In this document: in pieces, positions 3,246 to 14,429 of the stretch
Layout: every line of letters starts with the position of its first letter
How positions within the stretch are numbered: position 1 is the stretch's first letter
Origin: a virus
Taxonomy: Duplodnaviria > Heunggongvirae > Uroviricota > Caudoviricetes
Reading direction: 5' to 3' (one strand)
IMG/VR virus record: IMGVR_UViG_2651869780_000020
Coordinates: 1-17,046 of that record
Length of the DNA stretch: 17,046 nucleotides
Program-made: the position numbers and the translations under genes
The notes under the pieces: generated by a model
Told to the model about the DNA's origin: nothing
The model's input: only the letters and a program-made list of their open reading frames with translations
Databases searched by the model: none

Positions 3246-3434
3246 ATGGCACGAACAATGCTCTATAAGCCGGGCAACATGATCACCTGTGGTCAGTTTG
3301 CTGTCGATTACATCATTGTTGATGACGAAGAAGTTAAATCTCACCTGAAAAAAGGCTGGGTAAAAACTCCTGAAGAAACCGCAACGAAGCAAAAAGTGGC
3401 TAAGGCGGAAGAAGATGGCGAAAACGAAGGGTGA
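3246..3434 (+). CDS. Small hypothetical protein (62 aa) between coat and gp4
   Basis: ATG at 3246 preceded by GGGAGA (3235-3240) at 5-nt spacing. The GTG at 3210 in the ORF track lies inside the terminator stem and is rejected. The 3' end overlaps the gp4 start by 20 nt. Acidic C-terminus. No family recognised. Confidence 0.45.
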   Translation: MARTMLYKPGNMITCGQFAVDYIIVDDEEVKSHLKKGWVKTPEETATKQKVAKAEEDGENEG

Positions 3435-3876
3435 TCTCGTTCTTAAGGCTTTACGAAAAGCCGGGCTGTATTCCAATGCCACGTTGACAGATGCTGACCC
3501 TCAGGCAATTGAAGATGCCATTAATGACCTCGAAGACATGATGGCAGCATGGCAGGCAAAAGGTATCGAGCTTGGGTATCAGTTTGCTGATACAGAAAAC
3601 GGCATCATGCCGTTACCTGACGATGATTCAGGTATCCCTGCATGGGCAAATGATGGCGTCGCTTTGAAACTCGCTGTGCAAGTGTGCATGGATAACGTCA
3701 TTCAGCCGTCAGACGCTCTCCTTACCGCTGCTGACAGTGCATATCAGACAATCTGTATCGCTTTAACCAAAATACCACCACTTGAGCGGAGAAATGACAT
3801 GCCTCGCGGTAGTGGTAACAAAAGCGCGTTTACGTGGAATCGGTTTTACATCGAGAAAGATGATCCGAGTACGTGA
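3415..3876 (+). CDS. Head-to-tail adaptor / tail accessory factor, P22 gp4-like
   Basis: 153 aa. N-terminus [33 protein letters not shown] closely resembles P22 gp4 as recalled ([33 protein letters not shown]). Position after coat. Confidence 0.85.
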   Translation: [153 protein letters not shown]

Positions 3877-3885
3877 GGTGAATAA

Positions 3886-5304
3886 ATGCCGATTCAGCAA
3901 CTTCCGCTTATGAAAGGTGTCGGCAAAGACTTTCGAAACGCCGACTATATCGACTATCTGCCAGTGAATATGTTGGCAACCCCCAAAGAAATCCTGAACA
4001 GCAGCGGATATCTTCGCTCATTCCCGGGCATTGCCAAACGCTCTGATGTGAACGGTGTATCGCGCGGCGTCGAGTACAACATGGCGCAGAATGCTGTTTA
4101 TCGTGTCTGTGGCGGCAAGCTCTACAAAGGCGAAAGCGAAGTCGGTGACGTCGCCGGAAGTGGTCGCGTATCAATGGCCCATGATCGGACATCACAGGCG
4201 GTAGGTGTTAACGGGAAACTGGTCGAGTATCGCTATGATGGCACGGTTAAAACAGTCTCAAACTGGCCAACAGACAGCGGATTCACGCAGTATGAATTAG
4301 GTTCGGTCCGTGACATTACGCGCTTACGTGGGCGTTATGCGTGGTCAAAAGACGGAACTGATTCATGGTTTATCACTGACCTTGAAGACGAATCGCATCC
4401 TGACCGCTACAGCGCACAATATCGCGCAGAATCGCAGCCGGACGGAATCATCGGTATCGGCACATGGCGAGACTTCATAGTCTGCTTTGGTTCATCAACG
4501 ATTGAATATTTCTCCCTGACTGGTGCAACCACAGTTGGTGCCGCTTTGTATGTCGCACAACCATCACTGATGGTGCAAAAAGGCATTGCCGGAACTTACT
4601 GCAAAACGCCGTTTGCTGACTCGTATGCGTTCATCAGCAATCCGGCAACAGGTGCGCCGTCTGTATACATCATCGGCTCCGGTCAGGTATCACCAATCGC
4701 CAGCGCGAGCATTGAGAAAATCCTCCGCTCCTACACTGCTGATGAACTGGCTGATGGCGTGATGGAATCGCTGAGATTTGATGCGCATGAACTGCTGATT
4801 ATCCATCTTACGCGCCACGTCCTCGTGTACGACGCATCTTCAAGCGCCAATGGTCCGCAATGGTGTGTACTGAAAACAGGCCTGTATGACGATGTGTACC
4901 GCGCTATCGACTTCATTTACGAAGGCAATCAGATAACGTGCGGCGATAAGCTGGAATCCATGACAGGGAAATTGCAATTCGACATCAGCAGCCAGTACGA
5001 CAAGCAACAGGAACATCTGCTGTTTACTCCTCTGTTCAAAGCGGATAACGCCAGAGTGTTCGACCTTGAAGTTGAATCGTCAACTGGAGTTGCGCAGTAC
5101 GCTGACCGCCTTTTTCTCTCTGCAACCACTGACGGCATCAATTACGGGCGTGAGCAGATGATTGAGCAGAATGAACCGTTCGTTTACGACAAACGCGTTT
5201 TGTGGAAGCGTGTCGGGCGAATAAGGAAAAATGTCGGCTTCAAATTGCGCGTTATCACTAAGTCACCTGTCACTCTCTCAGGCTGCCAGATAAGGATTGA
5301 GTAA
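3886..5304 (+). CDS. Tail hub / head completion protein, P22 gp10-like
   Basis: 472 aa, the same length as P22 gp10 as recalled, in the syntenic position between gp4 and the tail needle. RBS gaggtg at 3876-3881. Confidence 0.8.
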
Positions 5305-7167: not shown

Positions 7168-8574
7168 ATGGCTACTTGGCAAGGAACAAATGGCGGATTG
7201 TTGGCTGGTATCGGTGGTGTCAACTCAAACGCTCCGAGCGTAAATGACATCGGCAATACGCTTCAGCTTATCAGACAGAACAATGATATTGAGCGTTCAG
7301 GCGCTAACAATGTTGGGCTGACTGCTTTGCAAGGTCTTTCAGGTATTGCGGGGGTGTTTCAGCAGGAAAAGCAGGCTCAGCGGCAGAAAGAATTTCAGCA
7401 GGCATACGCTAATGCTTATGCGTCTGGTGATCGCGGTGCTTTGCGTCAGTTGGCTACTCAATATCCAGACCAGATTGAATCCGTTCGTAAAGGCATGGGA
7501 TTCATTGACGAAGACCAGCGCAATTCTATCGGCACCTTAGCGGCTGGCGCACGCCTTGCGGCCTCGTCTCCAGAAGCAATGCAATCATGGCTGCAAAACA
7601 ACGCCAAGGAACTGGCGCGCGTCGGTGTTGACCCTAATAACGTTGCTCAGATGTATCAGCAGAATCCTTCAGGATTTGGTGAGTTTGTTGATCACCTTGG
7701 GATGGCTGCGCTTGGTCCGATTGATTACTTCAATGTTCAGGACAAGATGGCTGGTCGTGAGATTGACCGAGGCAGACTGGCAGAGACAATCCGCAGCAAT
7801 CAGGCTGGAGAAGCACTTCAGGCGAGAGGGCAAAACCTTTCCTATCAGTCAGCAATGACTGGGCACAATATCGCAGCACAACGCTTGGCTCTGGATCAGC
7901 AAGAGTTCGGGTTTAAGATGCAGCAAGCGCAGGAAAAGGCTCAGCAGTTGATTAGCGAAGCACCTAAGCTGTCAGTAAACATGGAAAAAGGCATCGAGAC
8001 GGCTGTAAACAATGCTACAGCATCATCAAACTCAGCCAATTCTATGAGTGCGCTTGCTCAACAGTTCAGAGCAGAAAAACCAACGACAGGTTTGTTCGGT
8101 AACGCACAGAACATGTTCGCAAAACTTACCGGAAGCGATACAACATTGCGTGATTTGCGCATCCGCCAAAATGCCCTTGTTAACAGTCAGGTTCTTAAAT
8201 TCCTACCTCCAGGCCCCGCAACGGATAAAGACGTTGAGATCGTTCGGCAGGGTGCACCAACTGACATGGATAACCCTGAGACGGTCGCAAGATGGCTTGA
8301 TGCGATGGCAAACCTTGAGCGACGAAACGCGCAGTTTAATGAGTTTAAAGCCGAGTGGATGAGCGCGAATGGCAATCCAGGACAATCGCGTAATGGCGGT
8401 CAGATATTGGGGTTGGATGTTAAAAAAGGTGAATCATTGGGGAGTGCCGTTAAGCGGTATATGTCAATGAATACTGACGCAGCGCCAGCACAAGATTCGA
8501 CACCTTCAGGAGAACCACGGAATCAGGTTGGATCATATACCTCAAAATCAGGCATTCAATTTACGGTGGAATGA
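7168..8574 (+). CDS. Ejection (injection) protein, P22 gp20-like
   Basis: 468 aa versus about 471 aa for P22 gp20; syntenic; RBS aagggg. Stop overlaps the next start (ATGA at 8571-8574). Confidence 0.8.
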
Positions 8575-10697
8575 TGAAAGTAACTGCAAACGGTAAGACA
8601 TTTACCTTCCCTGATGGTACGAGCACGGAAGATATTGGCACCGCCATTGATGAGTATTTTGCTGGTCAGGCTGTTCAGCAACAAACAGTTAATCAGGCCA
8701 ATAATGAACCAGCACGTGAAGAACCATCATTGATGCAACAAGCTGGCGATTGGCTCACAGGTGGTCAAAGTGCAGGGCAAATTGCAGAGCAGGCTGGTCG
8801 TGGTCTGGTAAACATACCATTTGACGTATTGCAGGGTGGCGCAAGTCTGATTAATGCAATCAGCCAGGGGCTTGGTGGCCCCAAGGTTTTGGATGATGTT
8901 TATCGCCCTGTCGATCGACCGACAGACCGTTGGGCGCAAGCCGGTGAAACATTTGGTGGGTATCTCCTGCCAATTGGCACAGCGGCAAAAGCTGCTGGAG
9001 CGACAGCAAAGCTCGCAGGAGACATCGGTTCCGCAGGAAACATGATTGCAGGTTCTCTTGCTGATGCTGCAAATCAGAAGGGTGATTTTGCACAAAATGC
9101 TGCCATTAACGGTGGTATCAATATTGGTGCTCAAGGCGTTCTTTCAGGTGTCGGGCGCGTTATTGCGCCAAGGGTTTCACAGGCTCTTGGTGGTGCAGCA
9201 CTGAATTCTGCTAATGATGTTTCCAGGATGGCAAAGTCAGGTGCTGGGCGTCAGTCAATTGCCAGTCAGGCCGCTAATGTGTCCGAAGATGTAGCAAAAG
9301 CGGCTGAGTCTGCTGGAATTGATATAAACGCATTAACACCAGGAATGCGATCTGGAAGTCGTGGAATTGCACAAGCCGAAGGCGCATTGGCATCAACACC
9401 AGGAATTGTTCAGGACGCCCATCAGGCAGCATTTAACGAAATATCATCAAAGTTAAGTCGAAACCTTGATGAATTTGGGGCCGCATCTGGAACGGCATCA
9501 GAAAAAAGTGCGGCTATAAAACAAAGGATTCTTCAAAATCTTGAACAGATGAAGGATGCCGAGCGCGCGGCATGGGATGACGTGCGGTCAACAATGCCAA
9601 ATCAAAAAGCAAGAATGCTAAATGGTAATGCCGTTATTCAGGCAGAGCGATCTGCTGGCATACCGCTTACTCCTGAAATGAAACAGTTTGTTCAGGCAAA
9701 CAATCAAGGTGGAGTAACATTTGATGGCATGAAAGCATGGAGAGCGAAATTTGCTGATGCGGAGCAAAAATATAAGCGTAGCGGAGAGGCAAATGCGGCA
9801 AGGAGAGCAGGGGAAATACGCCGGGCAATTACTGATGATATGCGCACAATGGCGGAAAACGGCGGATTTCTTGATGACTGGCAGAAAGCTAATGATCTGT
9901 CTAAAGCGAGGTTATCAGCACAAGAGAGTGCAGAGTCTGTTTTCGGGCGTGATTTGGCAACAGATGCACTGATTACGAATGGAGTAAAATCCCTTCAATC
10001 ATCGTCAGCTAAAGGTCTTAATGGCCCTGCTGGGTTCCATTCTATGATCCGCGCGCTGCCAGAATCAGAGCGTGTTCCTGCTATATCATCAATGTTGCAA
10101 GACGCTATCTCGCATGGTGTACGTGGTGGCAAAGCTGATGCAGCAGGAATTAACCATATCGCAGGGATACTTACCCCACAAAATGTAAAAGCCATTAGCA
10201 GATATTCCTCAGAACTCGGAAGAATTGCTGATGCATATGGCACTCTTGCAAGAGCAGCAGTGAAACCTCAGCAGTATATTGAAAGAACAGGGAGAACTGC
10301 CAATGTACTACGCGATCTGGATGCTGGTTTATCCAACGTCACATCAACAGTGTTAAATGCAATTGCCAACTCAACATCAGGTGCCATTGTTGGTGGCGCT
10401 GGAGGGGGTATTGCAGGCGCTGCCGCGGGTGCTTTAGTTGGCGCTGGGTTAAAAGGCGCTGTATCTAAAATTGCCACCACACGTAGTGGCCGATATGCGA
10501 TAGAGAAAGCTGTTCAGGAAGCCACCAAAGCAGTAAGAGCAGGCGGAAGTAAAGAAGCATTAGCGGCTGCGGAACGCAGATTTATGGCAAATAAGGCCGC
10601 CGTAAAAGCAATACGCGAGGCACTAGGAAACGAAGAGTTCCAGCGTTTAGCAAGAGCTGGAATTGTGGCATCGCTAAGCGGAATGGCACAGGAGTAA
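8571..10697 (+). CDS. Ejection (injection) protein, P22 gp16-like
   Basis: 708 aa, last and largest of the three ejection proteins. Gly/Ala-rich segments. Translationally coupled to gp20. Longer than P22 gp16 (about 609 aa as recalled). Confidence 0.8.
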
Positions 10698-11102
10698 TTA
10701 GTCATCCATGGATGGATTGAGCTTATCTCGTGTTGATGTGGCAATTTTCCCAACATTTTTCAACCAAGATTTTAAGAAGGATATGTCGTCCTTAATATCA
10801 TGAATATCCTCATTCTTTATACGATCAACCTTATCCTCTAAGCTCTCTATAGAACGCTCAATGCTAGACAGAGAGATTTTTAAGTCCCCTTGCTCACGTT
10901 CCAGTGAGGATTTGAGAGCACAATATTCGTTTTCTAGAATTCCTATTTTTTTTGTTAGAGAGTGCATTCGATACTCATACACCAAACCAGAAACGACTAA
11001 TGCAGCCAACAGAAACCATTCAAGCACACCAACCTCCTTAGTTTTGAGCAGGATACCAGATGATAATGTGTAGTTGGAGTAGCGCGGTTGTAATGCAAGC
11101 AT
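10698..11102 (-). CDS. Hypothetical membrane-anchored coiled-coil protein (candidate superinfection-exclusion function, P22 sieA position)
   Basis: 134 aa. One predicted transmembrane helix (LEWFLLAALVVSGLVYEY) followed by a heptad-rich charged segment (LENEYCALKSSLEREQGDLKISLSSIERSIESLEDKVDRIKNEDIHDIKDDISFLKSW). AT-rich. Convergent with gp16 with abutting stop codons (TAATTA at 10695-10700). No obvious SD sequence. No family recognised. Confidence 0.55.
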   Translation of the reverse strand: MLALQPRYSNYTLSSGILLKTKEVGVLEWFLLAALVVSGLVYEYRMHSLTKKIGILENEYCALKSSLEREQGDLKISLSSIERSIESLEDKVDRIKNEDIHDIKDDISFLKSWLKNVGKIATSTRDKLNPSMDD

Positions 11103-11182
11103 TTTGTTTTAGTTTTATGCTTGCTTGTATGTGTGTACAGTGTATATAATGCAAGCATACATCACAACAAAGGTGCTTGCAT
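11093..11182. repeat. Four copies of a 9-10 bp near-palindromic motif in alternating orientation: ATGCAAGCAT (11093-11102), ATGCTTGC (11117-11124), ATGCAAGCAT (11149-11158), TGCTTGCAT (11174-11182)
   Basis: Read directly from the sequence. The copies form two imperfect inverted-repeat units of about 32 bp, spaced about 56 bp apart. Copy 1 overlaps the start codon of the - strand membrane protein; copy 2 overlaps the -35; copy 3 abuts the -10; copy 4 lies between the RBS and the ATG of the 322-aa gene. Confidence 0.6.
11121..11150 (+). promoter_or_regulatory. Sigma70-like promoter for the 322-aa accessory gene
   Basis: TTGCTT (11121-11126), 18-bp spacer, TATAAT (11145-11150); RBS aggtg at 11171-11175; ATG at 11184. 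Confidence 0.55.
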
Positions 11183-11183
11183 T

Positions 11184-12152
11184 ATGACTGAAAAGAAAAG
11201 TGGCGAAGGGAAAGCTAAGGGCGGGATCGCTCGCGCAAAGTCGCTGACTAAAGAGCAGCGTTCTGAAATAGCAAAGAAAGCAGCTGCTGCAAGATGGAAA
11301 AGTAAGATTCTCAGGGCAACTCATCGTGGTAACTTTTTAGATGATTTTGGCATTGATGCTGAATGTTATGTACTGGATGACGAGTCGAAAACTGTCGTTG
11401 TTACGAAAACTGGATTATCTCAGTTGCTAGGGATTGGTGAACATGCCAGGGATTTAGATCAACTGCTTGGCGCTCAGTATATGAGCAAATACCGAGATCT
11501 AGAATTGCAGCGAAAAATGGAAAATCCCTATAAATTTCAACTTACTTCGAAGTCTAAAACCGTTCATCAAGCGTTAGGTTATGACATTACAGCAATTGTT
11601 GATATTGGTAGGGCACTAATAGAAGCCAAAGATAATGACGATCTACCACAATCACGGTTAAAGGCAGCCGCCGCAGCACAGAGACTTATTAATGCCTCCG
11701 CTAAGGCGGGAATTAAGGGGGTTGCGTATGCGCTTGCTGGTTATCGTCCAGAAGTTCAGGCTGTCATTGACGAGTTCAAAGCGTTTGTTCGTGAAGAGGC
11801 TCGTCAATATGAAAAGGAATTTCCAGATGAGCTATACGAGGAGTGGTATCGACTGTACGGCCTGAATAGGCCAGAGAAAGGACGGCCTATTCGTTTTGGG
11901 CAGCTAACCAACATGCAGATATACACCCCGCTAGCAAAGAGTAAAGGTAAAATCCTTGAACAGATTCGAGCCAGCCGAGACGAGAACGGAAAACAATCTG
12001 ATAAGTTGCATCTGTTCCTTTCTGAAATTGGTGTCAAGGCTTTGCGTCAGCATATCGGTAAGCTTCTTGGTGTCGCAGCGATGAGTGAGACAAGAGAAGA
12101 ATACGAAAAAGGAATAGAAAAGGTTTTCGGAAGAATGAAACCAGAAATCTAA
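11184..12152 (+). CDS. Hypothetical 322-aa accessory (moron) protein with a basic N-terminal helix-turn-helix-like motif; function unknown
   Basis: Long ORF with its own promoter and a strong terminator. The TTG start at 11121 in the ORF track is rejected in favour of ATG 11184 (MTEKKSGEGKAKGGIARAKSLTKEQRSEIAKKAAAARW..). The remainder is a charged, helical-looking domain. Not part of the conserved P22 structural set. Confidence 0.75.
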   Translation: MTEKKSGEGKAKGGIARAKSLTKEQRSEIAKKAAAARWKSKILRATHRGNFLDDFGIDAECYVLDDESKTVVVTKTGLSQLLGIGEHARDLDQLLGAQYMSKYRDLELQRKMENPYKFQLTSKSKTVHQALGYDITAIVDIGRALIEAKDNDDLPQSRLKAAAAAQRLINASAKAGIKGVAYALAGYRPEVQAVIDEFKAFVREEARQYEKEFPDELYEEWYRLYGLNRPEKGRPIRFGQLTNMQIYTPLAKSKGKILEQIRASRDENGKQSDKLHLFLSEIGVKALRQHIGKLLGVAAMSETREEYEKGIEKVFGRMKPEI

Positions 12153-12198: not shown

Positions 12199-12402
12199 TT
12201 AACCAAATCGATCCTTAAAGCGCCTATCGCTGTTGCGTCTCTCCATTTTACTGTTGCAGTACGGACAAAGATGCTGTTTCTTTCCATCGATAGTCCATGT
12301 GAAGTACTTTTTCTTAAATCCAGCACCACAGATATCGCAACTTCTTGGTTTAAACATACTGGCTATGAAGATAAGAACAACAAATCCTATGATCCATTCC
12401 AT
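12199..12402 (-). CDS. Small membrane-anchored zinc-ribbon protein (67 aa)
   Basis: N-terminal hydrophobic helix (EWIIGFVVLIFIASMF) followed by CDIC..(19 aa)..CPYC, i.e. four Cys in a C-x2-C...C-x2-C arrangement, and a basic tail. Ends just before the bidirectional terminator. Confidence 0.5.
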   Translation of the reverse strand: MEWIIGFVVLIFIASMFKPRSCDICGAGFKKKYFTWTIDGKKQHLCPYCNSKMERRNSDRRFKDRFG

Positions 12403-12543
12403 ATCATGTACCTGTTTTAACTTTATTTTTTGATTTTTAGGGATTAATCAGAAACTTTATCTTGCGATTAAGCAAAGCTACTAGCTAACAAAAGAGTGCG
12501 TATACAATCAATCGTTTCACATCAACCTCAACAAGGAGAAATC

Positions 12544-12729
12544 ATGACCATAGAAGAACGCCTGAACAACATTGAGTTGAACCAAACCCTGCTTGACCAG
12601 CGACTTTCAGATCTTGAGCTTAAAGATCTTGATGCGCAAATATCAGAAGCAGAAGCCAAGCTCTCCAGCTTAAACCACCGCAAGAAGCAAATCCGCAACA
12701 GAATTACTCAGGGACGCGGAAGCTGTTGA
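12544..12729 (+). CDS. Small coiled-coil protein (61 aa)
   Basis: ATG 12544 preceded by a strong SD AAGGAG (12533-12538) at 5-nt spacing; the GTG at 12496 in the ORF track is rejected. Sequence MTIEERLNNIELNQTLLDQRLSDLELKDLDAQISEAEAKL.. is heptad-like. The 3' end overlaps the convergent 69-aa ORF by 26 nt. Confidence 0.5.
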   Translation: MTIEERLNNIELNQTLLDQRLSDLELKDLDAQISEAEAKLSSLNHRKKQIRNRITQGRGSC

Positions 12730-12913
12730 GGTGGGATGCTAGGTCTCTATCGTTAAAATCAAGGCTGCTAATCATTTCATTGTAAATGGCGTTTTTATCT
12801 TCCATTGGCAGTCTTGAGTAAACCAGACACAGAGCATATTTCAGGGAGTTTAGCTCTTTCTCTAGCTCTTCCTTGCTTGACGTTGTTGACTTAATAAACT
12901 GTTTTTTATTCAT
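12704..12913 (-). CDS. Hypothetical 69-aa protein, translationally coupled downstream of mnt
   Basis: On the - strand its ATG overlaps the mnt TGA stop (ATGA at 12910-12913). No recognisable family. Confidence 0.45.
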   Translation of the reverse strand: MNKKQFIKSTTSSKEELEKELNSLKYALCLVYSRLPMEDKNAIYNEMISSLDFNDRDLASHLNSFRVPE

Positions 12914-13161
12914 TTTGCATCCTTACCATACATGGTCTTTAGCGTCTCAACATCGTGTTCAAGATCTATCAATCGTGATGCTATAGTTGCAAGGTCTAGT
13001 GCTTGAATGTGTTTATTTTTTTCGGTCCACGCTTCAAGTGCCGCGACCATCTCAGCATTTAATGAACGAGAATTAGCCTCAGCCAGTTCAATAAGACGTT
13101 CCTTTATCTCTACAGGAAGCCTCAGATTCACTTGAGGGTTTTTGTACTTACGATCAGACAT
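12910..13161 (-). CDS. mnt: Mnt-like ribbon-helix-helix repressor (Arc/MetJ superfamily)
   Basis: 83 aa, the same length as P22 Mnt as recalled. N-terminus ..NLRLPVEIKERLIELAEANSRSLNAEMVAALEAW matches the RHH beta-strand/helix pattern of P22 Mnt (..FRMPMEVREKLKFRAEANGRSMNSELLQIV..). Divergent from arc. Confidence 0.8.
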   Translation of the reverse strand: MSDRKYKNPQVNLRLPVEIKERLIELAEANSRSLNAEMVAALEAWTEKNKHIQALDLATIASRLIDLEHDVETLKTMYGKDAK

Positions 13162-13266
13162 CGGCGCATCCTGAATAATTTTTTACCACAGGATATGTAG
13201 GTATCTATTGACTATCAATGCGTACCTAAATGCTATGTATGCGTACCACGTACAACGGAGGATGCA
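13162..13266. promoter_or_regulatory. Divergent promoter/operator region between mnt and arc (Pmnt/Pant-like)
   Basis: 105-bp intergenic region. Palindrome ATTGA-cta-TCAAT (13207-13219) contains back-to-back -35-like hexamers (TTGACT on +, TTGATA on -). Direct repeat ATGCGTACC at 13218-13226 and 13239-13247, 21 bp apart. Inverted ATCCTG/CAGGAT (13168-13173 / 13189-13194). AGGATGC precedes both start codons. Exact -10 elements are ambiguous. Confidence 0.55.
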
Positions 13267-13407
13267 ATGAAGGTAAAAACACTGCGTATGCCAGAGAAGC
13301 TAGAAAAAATTCTTGAAGAAAAAGCAAAGGAAGAGTGTCGCTCATTCAGCGCAGAAGTAATTAAACGGGTGCTGGACAGCCTGAGGAGAGAGGGGATAAC
13401 GGTGTGA
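13267..13407 (+). CDS. arc: Arc-like ribbon-helix-helix repressor (46 aa; below the ORF-track size cutoff)
   Basis: Own translation: MKVKTLRMPEKLEKILEEKAKEECRSFSAEVIKRVLDSLRREGITV. The segment RSFSAEVIKRVLDSLRREG resembles P22 Arc RSVNSEIYQRVMESFKKEG as recalled. SD GGAGG at 13256-13260. Sits between mnt and ant as in P22 immI. Confidence 0.75.
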   Translation: MKVKTLRMPEKLEKILEEKAKEECRSFSAEVIKRVLDSLRREGITV

Positions 13408-13423
13408 TTCGCTTGGATGCGGC

Positions 13424-13472
13424 AAAGAAATCAAAACAGTGAAGCCCCAACTGCGGGAACAGTCAGGGCTTC
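13424..13472 (-). terminator. Intrinsic terminator oriented for leftward (- strand) transcription in the arc-ant spacer
   Basis: Stem GAAGCCC (13441-13447) / GGGCTTC (13466-13472) with an inner ACTG/CAGT helix. On the - strand it is followed by ACUGUUUUGAUUUCUUU (complement of 13424-13440). No U-run follows it on the + strand. Confidence 0.55.
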
Positions 13473-13505
13473 GGTATCGTAAAACCACGCATAGGAATTA
13501 ACGAC
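13424..13505 (-). ncRNA. Predicted sar-like small antisense RNA, complementary to the ant ribosome-binding site
   Basis: Inferred from a - strand promoter inside the ant 5' end (see 13512-13540) plus the - strand terminator at 13424-13472. The predicted transcript of about 80 nt is antisense to the ant SD (agga 13493-13496) and start region, analogous to the P22 Sar RNA. Ends are approximate. Confidence 0.4.
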
Positions 13506-14429
13506 ATGAAAAGTATAGCAACAGCAGTATCTACTATCAATGTACCATTCCACGGCGCAGAGCTTTATGTTGTCAATCACAACGGCGAACCGTATACCCC
13601 AATGAAACCTATCGTTGAGGGAATGGGGCTAGACTGGAAATCTCAACATAAGAAGATTTCTCAACGCTTCTCGAAGGGTATGGTGGAAATCACCATACCT
13701 TCTGCCGGTGGGGTGCAAGCCATGATTTGTATGGCTTTACGAAAATTGGCAGCTTGGTTGAACAGCATCAGTCCTAACAAAGTCCGCCCTGAAATCCGCG
13801 ACAAGGAAATCCAGTATCAGGAAGAGTGTGACGATGTGCTCTACGAGTACTGGACTAAAGGCCATGTAGTTAACCCACGCAAAGCTAAAAAGGCGTTGCC
13901 GGGTAAAATCACCACTGAACAGCAGGAAGCCATTAAACAACTCGTCATGAGTCGCGGTCAGTCTCTGCCAAAAGAAAAACAGGCTAAGGCGATGATCACC
14001 ATGTGGTCGTCACTGAAATCTCATTTTGGGTGTTCATACAAAGAAATCAGCGATGAGCAGTTTACCGAAGCTCTGTCACTTGCAGCTCGCGTTCCGCTTG
14101 AAGGCGAGTTAATCGGCAAACAAGAGAAGAAAGCAAACGAGCTTTCTGCAAAAGAAGCAAACAGCCTTGTATGGTTATGGGATTATGCCAACCGCTCACA
14201 GGCATTATTCCGCGAACTGTATCCGGCGCTAAAACAAATTCAATCGAACTATTCCGGCAGATGTCATGACTGCGGTTATGAGTTCTCCCGTATTATCGAT
14301 ATGGCGAGAGATGTTTTAATCAACCATACACGAGATGTTGATATTAATGAGCCAGACGGACCAACGAATCTTTCCGCATGGATGAGACTTAAGAATAAAG
14401 AATTACCTCCTTCAGTACATAACTACTGA
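13506..14429 (+). CDS. ant: Antirepressor (Ant-like)
   Basis: 307 aa versus about 300 aa for P22 Ant. Located directly downstream of arc. N-terminal pattern (..VPFHGAELYVV..GEPYTPMKPIVEGMGLDWKSQHKKI..) is reminiscent of phage antirepressor N-terminal domains. Followed by a terminator. Confidence 0.7.
   Translation: MKSIATAVSTINVPFHGAELYVVNHNGEPYTPMKPIVEGMGLDWKSQHKKISQRFSKGMVEITIPSAGGVQAMICMALRKLAAWLNSISPNKVRPEIRDKEIQYQEECDDVLYEYWTKGHVVNPRKAKKALPGKITTEQQEAIKQLVMSRGQSLPKEKQAKAMITMWSSLKSHFGCSYKEISDEQFTEALSLAARVPLEGELIGKQEKKANELSAKEANSLVWLWDYANRSQALFRELYPALKQIQSNYSGRCHDCGYEFSRIIDMARDVLINHTRDVDINEPDGPTNLSAWMRLKNKELPPSVHNY
13512..13540 (-). promoter_or_regulatory. Psar-like leftward promoter inside the first codons of ant
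   Basis: On the - strand: TTGATA (complement of 13535-13540), 17-bp spacer, TATACT (complement of 13512-13517); the predicted start is near the ant ATG. Confidence 0.5.

What the first reader, a model, noticed from the sequence alone, without database searches (positions are those of the whole stretch)
10698..11102. Membrane-anchored coiled-coil protein convergent on the ejection operon with abutting stop codons
The 134-aa ORF has one transmembrane helix followed by a heptad-rich charged domain, and its stop codon directly abuts the stop of ejection gene gp16 (TAATTA), with no intergenic terminator. P22 SieA is an inner-membrane protein that blocks DNA entry of superinfecting phage; a structurally unrelated membrane protein at the same locus is a plausible functional analogue. 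Convergent transcription with no spacer also implies transcriptional interference with the late operon.
Basis: partly seen in the sequence, partly recalled or inferred. Interest (0 to 1): 0.55.

Follow-up and report, generated by a model that had tools for sequence, protein, structure and literature searches.

The report
HkcB fills phage P22's sieA slot
This is hkcB, a small membrane-anchored coiled-coil gene of P22-like prophages whose function has never been tested; it sits behind the same ribosome-binding block as the P22 exclusion gene sieA, so it is a good but unproven candidate for a new way of blocking incoming phage.

Summary
The ORF, its hydrophobic helix, its coiled coil and the abutting stop codons (TAATTA, 10695-10700) are real. 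The 134-aa reading is too long. The gene is 109 aa (10698-11027, minus strand), starting at a GTG five bases after an AAGGAGG. It is 98-99% identical to HK620 HkcB (phrog_5962, function unknown) and is under purifying selection (dN/dS 0.1-0.4).

It is not homologous to SieA, but it occupies the same slot. The 35 nt before its GTG match the block before P22 sieA. In HK620 and about ten other loci, all 85 nt upstream are 98-99% identical to the P22 fragment that expresses sieA. An exact-match scan for this block found 117 ORFs in 12 unrelated families. Eleven look like membrane or secreted proteins, and only SieA has been characterised. HkcB and SieA never co-occur in these loci. HkcB always abuts an HK620/epsilon34-type gene 16, and SieA a P22-type one.

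The SieA-analogue idea is therefore plausible and testable, but no exclusion function is shown. The positive-inside rule puts the coiled coil in the cytoplasm. Convergent transcription is a known general property of this region.

The parts
10698..11027 (-). hkcB coding sequence: 109 aa, GTG start, TAA stop. Residues about 1-19 form an N-terminal transmembrane helix, about 20-75 a heptad coiled coil, and 66-109 the most conserved C-terminal module, with the motif W-L-K-N-V-G-x-I-A-x-S-T-R.
11028..11102 (-).
   Evidence: the profile and the homologues start at the GTG, and the extension varies with the upstream context
11028..11062 (-). Conserved 35-nt block CATCTGGTATCCTGCTCAAAACTAAGGAGGTTGGT. 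It is shared with P22 sieA and with 10 other unrelated cassettes. It contains the Shine-Dalgarno AAGGAGG (11039-11033) and an extended -10-like TGGTATCCT (11058-11050).
   Evidence: the promoter reading is inference
10695..10700 (.). Abutting convergent stop codons TAA/TTA of gene 16 and hkcB, with no intergenic base. This holds in all 55 HkcB junctions measured.
8571..10697 (+). Gene 16-type ejection (DNA transfer) protein, 708 aa, of the HK620/CUS-3/epsilon34 family, ending ...[12 protein letters not shown]. It is the invariable neighbour of hkcB.
11091..11185 (.). Divergent control region between hkcB and the P63C gene. It holds four ATGCAAGCAT/ATGCTTGCAT elements in two inverted pairs. This region, rather than the P22-type PsieA sequence, lies upstream of the conserved block in this window.
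11184..12152 (+). Divergent neighbour: a P63C-domain protein of 322 aa and unknown function. It is one of at least six alternative upstream contexts of hkcB.

Best explanation
The feature is hkcB, a real 109-aa gene of the 'ant moron' of a P22-like (Lederbergvirus) prophage of E. coli. Its product is a bitopic inner-membrane protein. The N-terminal transmembrane helix starts at residue 1 and continues into a long coiled-coil stalk. By the positive-inside rule the stalk most probably lies in the cytoplasm. It ends in a strongly conserved C-terminal module.

hkcB is one of at least 12 unrelated single-gene cassettes that replace each other in the slot next to ejection gene 16. All sit behind one conserved 33-35-nt block carrying a Shine-Dalgarno sequence, a GTG start and possibly an extended -10 element. 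P22 sieA is the only characterised occupant.

The most likely function is therefore expression from the prophage and protection of the lysogen against superinfecting P22-like phages at the inner-membrane step of DNA delivery. The likeliest route is interference with the gp16/gp20 conduit of phages that carry the HK620/epsilon34-type gp16.

Shown: the gene is real; the start codon; the architecture; the shared expression block; cassette exchange; mutual exclusivity with sieA; linkage to one gp16 family. Inferred: prophage expression in this window; topology; the exclusion function and its target.
For: Real gene:
- dN/dS is 0.11-0.40, and 0.09-0.19 in the C-terminal 45 aa.
- Distant members P0030 and P0032 keep the transmembrane helix, the coiled coil and the W-x-x-N-V-G motif.
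- GC is 0.38-0.42, against 0.45-0.52 across gene 16, which is typical of a moron.

Start codon.

Same slot as sieA:
- P22 sieA has the same strand and position and an identical block up to the GTG.
- HK620, L009, L018, L021, L023, L026-L028 and L031 have 98-99% identity to the 85 nt upstream of P22 sieA. That fragment drove functional sieA at galK (PMC10883804).
- In CUS-3, hkcB ends a co-directional mnt-mnt-orf-orf-hkcB string, consistent with prophage transcription from Pmnt.

Cassette census:
- Ten families have a hydrophobic segment that passes the Kyte-Doolittle threshold, and one more has a signal-peptide-like N-terminus.
- A second family, unrelated in sequence, has the same architecture of one transmembrane helix plus a coiled coil.

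Linkage:
- No locus holds both the HkcB and the SieA motif: 73 versus 12.
- HkcB abuts the ...[12 protein letters not shown] gp16 tail in 55 of 55 junctions. SieA lies next to the ...PAYERAL...NEATRQ tail in 12 of 12.
- SieA escape mutations map to gp16 and gp20, and HK620 ejection proteins partly resist SieA (PMC10883804).

Topology: there is no K or R before the helix and 2-3 after it in all 7 family members examined.
Against: - There is no experimental datum on HkcB anywhere in the searchable literature.
- There is no homology to SieA or to any defence model. PADLOC gives only a weak DpdH hit at E 0.002, and NCBIfam and Pfam give coiled-coil noise.
- Sharing a slot and an expression block does not prove a shared function. 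One cassette family is a soluble 140-aa protein.
- In this window the P22-type PsieA sequence is absent (identity 0.55 over 85 nt) and no good sigma-70 site was found upstream of hkcB. The best candidates are TTGTGA-17-TACACT and the -35-less TGGTATCCT.
- The gp16 linkage may be trivial, because with no spacer there is no place to recombine between the two genes.
- A cytoplasmic coiled coil is not an obvious way to block a periplasm-spanning conduit.
- CUS-3, which carries hkcB and this gp16 family, is fully excluded by SieA, so cassettes are not strictly matched to gp16 type.
Confidence: 0.5

Rival explanations
1. HkcB is a prophage-expressed envelope moron with some other role, not a block to DNA entry by P22-like phages. 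Examples are an abortive-infection or defence component aimed at unrelated phages, or a modulator of host membrane, stress or division physiology. The latter would resemble host bitopic proteins with cytoplasmic coiled coils such as YhcB/ZapG or PspB (architecture recalled from general knowledge).
For: All the evidence for membrane location and prophage-type expression applies equally. The predicted cytoplasmic location of the coiled coil fits an intracellular partner at least as well as a periplasmic conduit. The cassette slot also holds a soluble protein and probable periplasmic proteins, so its occupants need not share one mechanism.
Against: The only characterised occupant of the slot is an exclusion protein. 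HkcB is strictly exclusive with sieA, strictly linked to one gp16 family and restricted to P22-like phages. These points favour a function tied to this phage group. No defence model matches.
Confidence: 0.3
2. HkcB serves the phage's own lytic cycle or its own ejection protein. It might, for example, neutralise newly made gp16 at the cytoplasmic face of the producer cell's membrane, which would explain why hkcB and the 3' end of gene 16 are inherited as one block.
For: There is a zero-base junction with gene 16 in 55 of 55 loci, and the C-terminal tail of gp16 is conserved alongside hkcB. sieA is reported to be upregulated on induction (PMC10883804), so slot genes can be expressed during lytic growth.
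Against: hkcB is antisense to the late operon, so it competes with late transcription instead of being part of it. Phages with the same gp16 tail exist without hkcB: Dewey, Huey and Louie, and the 149-aa and 140-aa cassettes. gp16 therefore does not need HkcB. There is no detectable similarity or mimicry between HkcB and gp16.
Confidence: 0.1
3. What matters is the antisense arrangement, not the protein. In this reading, leftward transcription across the abutting stops into gene 16 exists to interfere with late-operon expression.
For: There is no spacer and no terminator at the junction. The only terminator-like site on the minus strand is weak and lies 210 nt inside gene 16, at 10490-10473.
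Against: Strong purifying selection acts on the protein frame, and the protein architecture is conserved at about 30% identity. Unrelated cassettes with spacers from -4 to 63 nt occupy the same place. Read-through of the whole moron by late transcription is a general, already described property of the region.
Confidence: 0.05
4. The ORF is a chance open frame, or a better gene lies on the other strand.
For: A 70-aa plus-strand ORF lies at 10861..11073.
Against: dN/dS is well below 1 in the minus-strand frame. The gene matches a full-length PHROG family. It is annotated or called as 107-109 aa in many independent genomes.
Confidence: 0.01

Closest known systems
HkcB of coliphage HK620 (AAK28903), gp14 of Salmonella phage epsilon34 and hkcB of CUS-3; PHROG phrog_5962
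   Same: It is the same gene family. It is 98-99% identical to HK620 HkcB and about 50% identical to the epsilon34, CUS-3 and SEN22 proteins. Length, transmembrane helix, coiled coil, C-terminal motif and position abutting gene 16 all match.
   Different: Nothing essential differs. In this window the upstream neighbour is a P63C-domain gene instead of hkcC, so the P22-type PsieA sequence found in HK620 is missing. The family has no known function.
SieA of Salmonella phage P22 (inner-membrane superinfection exclusion protein; Leavitt et al. 2024, PMC10883804)
   Same: It has the same genomic slot, strand and convergent orientation to gene 16. It shares the Shine-Dalgarno/GTG block, and in many hkcB phages the same 85-nt upstream region. 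Both are small inner-membrane proteins, they are mutually exclusive, and both are confined to P22-like phages.
   Different: There is no sequence or profile similarity. HkcB has one transmembrane helix plus a coiled coil, against three or four transmembrane helices in SieA. It lacks the FxRYPxEAxxFNK motif. It is linked to a different gp16 family. It has a 0-nt spacer, against 22 nt. No exclusion phenotype has been tested.
Other single-pass membrane or lipoprotein exclusion proteins that block DNA entry: HK97 gp15, lactococcal Sie2009, T4 Imm and Sp, TP-J34 Ltp (recalled from general knowledge; HK97 gp15, the lactococcal prophage exclusion proteins and TP-J34 Ltp appear in the reference list seen)
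   Same: They are small, prophage- or phage-encoded, membrane-anchored proteins carried as morons, and they act on the injection machinery rather than on the receptor.
   Different: No homology was found. Their functional domains are, as far as I recall, mostly extracytoplasmic, whereas the HkcB stalk is predicted to be cytoplasmic. None is known to me as a long coiled coil.
The 109-aa cassette family phrog_8100 (MLEIIVLALG...) found in the same slot
   Same: It has the same length and the same architecture, an N-terminal transmembrane helix followed by a coiled coil. It sits behind the same expression block and also begins M-L-E.
   Different: There is no significant homology (hhalign probability 7.8%). 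It lies next to P22-type gp16 tails with a 17-19-nt spacer.

Membership tests
HkcB family (phrog_5962) | Full-length sequence match to the family profile | tested here: met
   E 2.8e-61, residues 26-134 of the long ORF against profile positions 1-109 of 109. 98-99% identical to HK620 HkcB.
HkcB family (phrog_5962) | N-terminal transmembrane helix, a coiled coil, and the conserved C-terminal W-x-x-N-V-G...S-T-R module | tested here: met
   Invariant columns include W88, N91, V92, G93, S98, T99 and R100.
HkcB family (phrog_5962) | Position convergent on, and abutting, ejection gene 16 in a P22-like phage | tested here: met
   Gap of 0 nt in 55 of 55 junctions, including the window.
SieA family (P22 types A-C) | Sequence homology to SieA | tested here: not met
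   hhalign probability 0.1%. tblastn with P22 SieA found it in none of the hkcB loci.
SieA family (P22 types A-C) | Three to four transmembrane helices and the cytoplasmic motif FxRYPxEAxxFNK (PMC10883804) | tested here: not met
   One hydrophobic segment only. The motif is absent from all HkcB loci.
SieA family (P22 types A-C) | Location between genes 16 and 9, leftward, directly after gene 16 | tested here: met
SieA family (P22 types A-C) | Expression from the putative PsieA region, the 85 nt upstream | tested here: inconclusive
   Met for HK620-type loci (98-99% identity). In this window only the proximal 35 nt are shared (identity 0.55 over 85 nt). No transcript data are available.
SieA family (P22 types A-C) | Blocks DNA injection by P22-like phages, with escape mutations in genes 16 and 20 | not testable with these tools
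   Needs plating, K+ efflux and escape-mutant experiments.
Spanin (Rz-like i-spanin) | Type II membrane protein with a periplasmic coiled coil, encoded in the lysis cassette together with an o-spanin | tested here: not met
   The gene lies in the ant moron, antisense to the late operon. There are no positive charges before the helix. The only lysis-related match is a sub-threshold NCBIfam hit to P2 Rz1 (13.7 bits against a cutoff of 27).

The most novel reading that the evidence does not exclude
The position next to gene 16 in P22-like phages is a dedicated plug-in site. A conserved 33-35-nt unit (possibly an extended -10 element, plus a Shine-Dalgarno sequence and a GTG) drives whichever of at least 12 unrelated envelope proteins is inserted. 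Each would be a distinct superinfection-exclusion determinant co-inherited with the gp16 type it acts on. In this reading HkcB is a new mechanistic class: a membrane-tethered cytoplasmic coiled coil that stops the gp16 conduit, or the entering DNA, at the inner face of the membrane.
Probability: 0.25. Interest if true: 0.75.

Novelty: new variant of a known kind. Interest (0 to 1): 0.5.

Why it matters
Only about a third of sequenced P22-like phages carry sieA (22 of 66, PMC10883804). What the others use has not been addressed in the literature I could search.

The analysis shows that hkcB and ten other uncharacterised families replace sieA precisely, start codon for start codon, behind the same expression block. 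All but one of these families look like envelope proteins.

This turns a hypothetical protein annotated since the HK620 genome was deposited into a concrete, cheaply testable candidate. The strains, hybrid phages and assays already exist from the SieA work.

If HkcB excludes phages, it would be a structurally new inhibitor of the podovirus ejection-protein conduit and a new probe of gp16 function. The slot would also become a source of further such inhibitors. If it does not, the slot is a general envelope-moron site, and the SieA analogy should not be extended by position alone.

Tried and rejected
1. The 134-aa reading was rejected in favour of the 109-aa GTG start.
2. Homology to any known family was sought in Pfam, NCBIfam, PADLOC, PDB sequence profiles and a Foldseek search of BFVD. 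These gave only coiled-coil noise or nothing. A model that is one long helix makes fold searches uninformative, so I did not run further libraries.
3. I noticed KIATSTR in HkcB and KIATTRS in gp16 and tested whether the HkcB C-terminus mimics gp16. The similarity is not significant: 250 of 2000 shuffles score as well, and BLASTP gives E above 4.
4. Remote homology between HkcB and the second family with one transmembrane helix plus a coiled coil was rejected (probability 7.8%).
5. I first read hkcB as occurring with four or more gp16 types, based on best-hit labels. The alignment shows these are one family, 60-100% identical beyond the first 80 aa, so I withdrew that reading.
6. A scan of one genome per species found no locus. 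The family is too narrow and strain-specific for that collection, so I used IMG/VR instead.
7. A sigma-70 consensus scan found no convincing hkcB promoter in the window. The promoter remains unresolved.
8. The HK620 genome paper (PMID 11518522) is not held, so I could not check what its authors said about hkcB.

Full report
**What is in the sequence**

The window is the late-operon end of a P22-like (Lederbergvirus) prophage of E. coli. It holds ejection genes of the 7/20/16 type, then the 'ant moron', then the tailspike gene. The moron contains mnt at 12910..13161 (minus), sar RNA at 13438-13504 (minus), and ant at 13506..14429.

The reported ORF exists at 10698..11102 on the minus strand. 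The TAA of the gp16-type gene (8571..10697) is followed directly by the reverse-complement TAA of this ORF. This gives TAATTA at 10695-10700 with no intergenic base.

**The gene is real, but shorter than reported**

PHROG family phrog_5962 is a 109-position profile. It matches residues 26-134 end to end (E 2.8e-61). Almost all homologues in a 5.8-billion-protein collection are 107-109 aa.

Residue 26 is a GTG at 11027-11025. It lies five bases after a perfect AAGGAGG at 11039-11033. The upstream ATG at 11102 has no Shine-Dalgarno sequence. The 25-codon extension changes with whatever lies upstream in other phages. The product is therefore 109 aa, at 10698..11027.

Against homologues about 50% identical in protein (epsilon34, SEN22, and IMG/VR loci L042, L043 and L045), Nei-Gojobori dN/dS is 0.11-0.40 with synonymous sites near saturation. 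In the C-terminal 45 residues it falls to 0.09-0.19. The protein frame on the minus strand is under purifying selection. Chance and an opposite-strand gene are excluded.

GC is 0.38-0.42 here, against 0.45-0.52 across gene 16, as expected for a moron.

**What the protein looks like**

- Residues 1 to about 19 are hydrophobic: Kyte-Doolittle 1.94 over 17 aa and 1.61 over 19 aa.
- AlphaFold2 models residues 2-103 as one uninterrupted helix, mean pLDDT 84.
- A family profile finds only generic coiled coils in the PDB.
- Pfam, NCBIfam and PADLOC give nothing above noise. A Foldseek search of viral models gives nothing.

The family is very small. It comprises 26 clusters at 90% identity. A profile search of 1.84 billion representatives returned 12 proteins at E up to 0.001. 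Seven of them are short proteins of the family, including two truncated forms. The other five are long proteins of 302-3472 aa matched in several stretches, which I take to be coiled-coil noise.

The most distant members, P0030 and P0032, keep the same plan: a transmembrane helix from residue 1, heptads, and the C-terminal motif W-x-x-N-V-G.

In all seven members examined there is no Lys or Arg before the helix and two or three within the 15 residues after it. By the positive-inside rule this predicts N-out, C-in, which puts the coiled coil in the cytoplasm. The 134-aa reading would have predicted the opposite. Topology is a prediction, not a result.

**It is a known gene of unknown function**

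The gene is 95% identical in DNA to hkcB of HK620, whose product is annotated 'unknown' in the HK620 genome record. The protein is 98-99% identical to HK620 HkcB. It is also related to gp14 of epsilon34 and to hkcB of CUS-3 and SEN22.

The epsilon34 genome paper lists it among the ant-moron genes of unknown function (PMC2629481). I found no functional study.

Of 5426 complete E. coli genomes, 82 carry at least 80% of the 405-nt stretch.

**The link to SieA**

In P22, sieA lies at the same place and on the same strand, 22 nt after gene 16.

Reading the P22 sequence shows that the block GGTATCCTGcaCAAAACTAAGGAGGTTGGTGTG before sieA is the same block that precedes hkcB in the window at 11062-11025.

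In HK620 and in L009, L018, L021, L023, L026-L028 and L031, the whole 85 nt upstream of hkcB are 98-99% identical to the 85 nt upstream of P22 sieA. Leavitt et al. showed that a fragment with exactly those 85 nt gave full exclusion when sieA was placed at galK (PMC10883804). In those phages hkcB is a precise start-codon-to-stop replacement of sieA behind the same expression signals.

In CUS-3, hkcB instead ends a co-directional mnt-mnt-orf-orf-hkcB string. That is consistent with transcription from the prophage-active Pmnt.

In this window only the proximal 35 nt are shared. Further upstream lies the control region of a divergent P63C-domain gene.

I found no convincing sigma-70 promoter there. 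The conserved block itself contains TGGTATCCT at 11058-11050. This resembles an extended -10 element and could make the block a portable promoter plus ribosome-binding unit. That is my inference only.

**A census of the slot**

The 117 complete ORFs that start at its GTG fall into 12 families with no detectable similarity to each other.

| Family | ORFs |
|---|---|
| HkcB | 28 |
| 129-aa protein with a signal-peptide-like start | 24 |
| SieA | 11 |
| 62-aa protein, two transmembrane helices | 10 |
| 75-aa protein, two transmembrane helices | 9 |
| second 109-aa protein, one transmembrane helix plus coiled coil | 8 |
| 116-aa protein, three transmembrane helices | 6 |
| 149-aa protein, one transmembrane helix | 5 |
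| 140-aa soluble protein | 5 |
| 99-aa protein with a signal-peptide-like start | 4 |
| 103-106-aa protein, one transmembrane helix | 4 |
| 68-aa YobH-like protein | 3 |

Eleven of the twelve look like membrane or exported proteins. Apart from SieA, none has a known function.

Cassettes and upstream contexts are shuffled combinatorially around the block.

No locus holds both the HkcB and the SieA signature motifs: 73 against 12, with some contigs counted twice.

On the other side the linkage is tight. HkcB abuts a gp16 ending ...[12 protein letters not shown] in 55 of 55 junctions. SieA lies next to ...PAYERAL...NEATRQ in 12 of 12. The gp16 proteins of the window, HK620, CUS-3, epsilon34 and SEN22 are one family.

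SieA acts on gp16 and gp20, and HK620 ejection proteins partly escape it. A cassette co-inherited with its own gp16 type is therefore what one would expect of a matched exclusion factor. The zero-base junction also offers a trivial explanation, since there is nowhere to recombine between the two genes. In addition, CUS-3, which carries hkcB, is fully sensitive to SieA.

**Mechanism and verdict**

I rate it near certain that this is a real 109-aa hkcB gene encoding an inner-membrane-anchored coiled coil in the sieA slot.

I rate at about 0.5 that it is a prophage-expressed exclusion factor acting on DNA delivery by P22-like phages. About 0.3 goes to a different envelope or defence role. About 0.1 goes to a role tied to the phage's own gp16. 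About 0.05 goes to a function carried by the antisense transcript rather than the protein.

The gene family is not new. What is new is the evidence that it replaces sieA precisely, and that the slot holds many unrelated envelope proteins behind one conserved expression block. I score interest at 0.5. The claim is directly testable with existing strains, but the function is not shown here.

Noticed in passing
window 11091-11185: The divergent region between hkcB and the P63C gene holds four ATGCAAGCAT/ATGCTTGCAT elements in two inverted pairs: 11091-11102 with 11117-11124, and 11146-11157 with 11174-11185. The second pair folds as an RNA hairpin (-17.5 kcal/mol, z -4.5) that buries the P63C start codon at 11184. 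It also overlaps a TTGCTT-18-TATAAT promoter-like site at 11121-11150 on the plus strand, which I read by eye from the sequence. Whether these are operators or a translational hairpin is unresolved.
   Followed up: partly
window 11184-12152 (+): A P63C-domain protein of 322 aa (PF10546, E 7e-14; phrog_2384) of unknown function. It is one of at least six alternative genes found directly upstream of hkcB in different phages.
   Followed up: partly
window 12199-12913: Three small ORFs of unknown function lie between the P63C gene and mnt. One is a 67-aa zinc-ribbon-like protein with an N-terminal hydrophobic segment (12199..12402, minus). One is a 61-aa coiled-coil protein, phrog_7586 (about 12544..12729, plus). 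One is a 69-aa protein, phrog_16466 (12704..12913, minus), whose start overlaps the mnt stop by 4 nt.
   Followed up: no
window 12910-14429: The immunity-I region has mnt, sar RNA (RF00262, 76.6 bits, 13438-13504, minus) and ant. tblastn with P22 Arc found no arc gene in the window, as was noted for CUS-3 in the epsilon34 paper.
   Followed up: no
L116 (IMGVR_UViG_2545824644_000015) 2340-2372 and 4105-4137: One phage carries two copies of the sieA-type expression block 1.7 kb apart. The first drives the 129-aa signal-peptide cassette and the second lies beyond a P63C gene. A phage can therefore have two cassette slots.
   Followed up: partly
L047 (E. coli NZ_CM151382.1) 3315-3503 (-): An unannotated 62-aa ORF with two transmembrane helices starts at the conserved GTG, in a 363-nt stretch that RefSeq leaves without a gene. 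The same family occurs 10 times in the census.
   Followed up: yes
L048 (E. coli 55989, NC_011748.1) 3276-3503 (-): The 75-aa cassette with two transmembrane helices overlaps the end of gene 16 by 4 nt in convergent orientation. Spacers between cassettes and gene 16 range from -4 to 63 nt in intact cassettes.
   Followed up: yes
gene 16 of the window (8571-10697), L001 and L004: In my alignment the gp16 proteins of HK620 and CUS-3 are about 43-100% identical per 40-column window. This does not fit the 'only 26% identical' figure quoted for this pair in PMC10883804 section 20. Different sequences or methods may have been compared.
   Followed up: no
proteins P0022 and P0023 (metagenomic): Two proteins carry the conserved HkcB C-terminal 46 aa fused to an unrelated, non-hydrophobic N-terminal part. 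This suggests that the C-terminal module can be recombined on its own.
   Followed up: no
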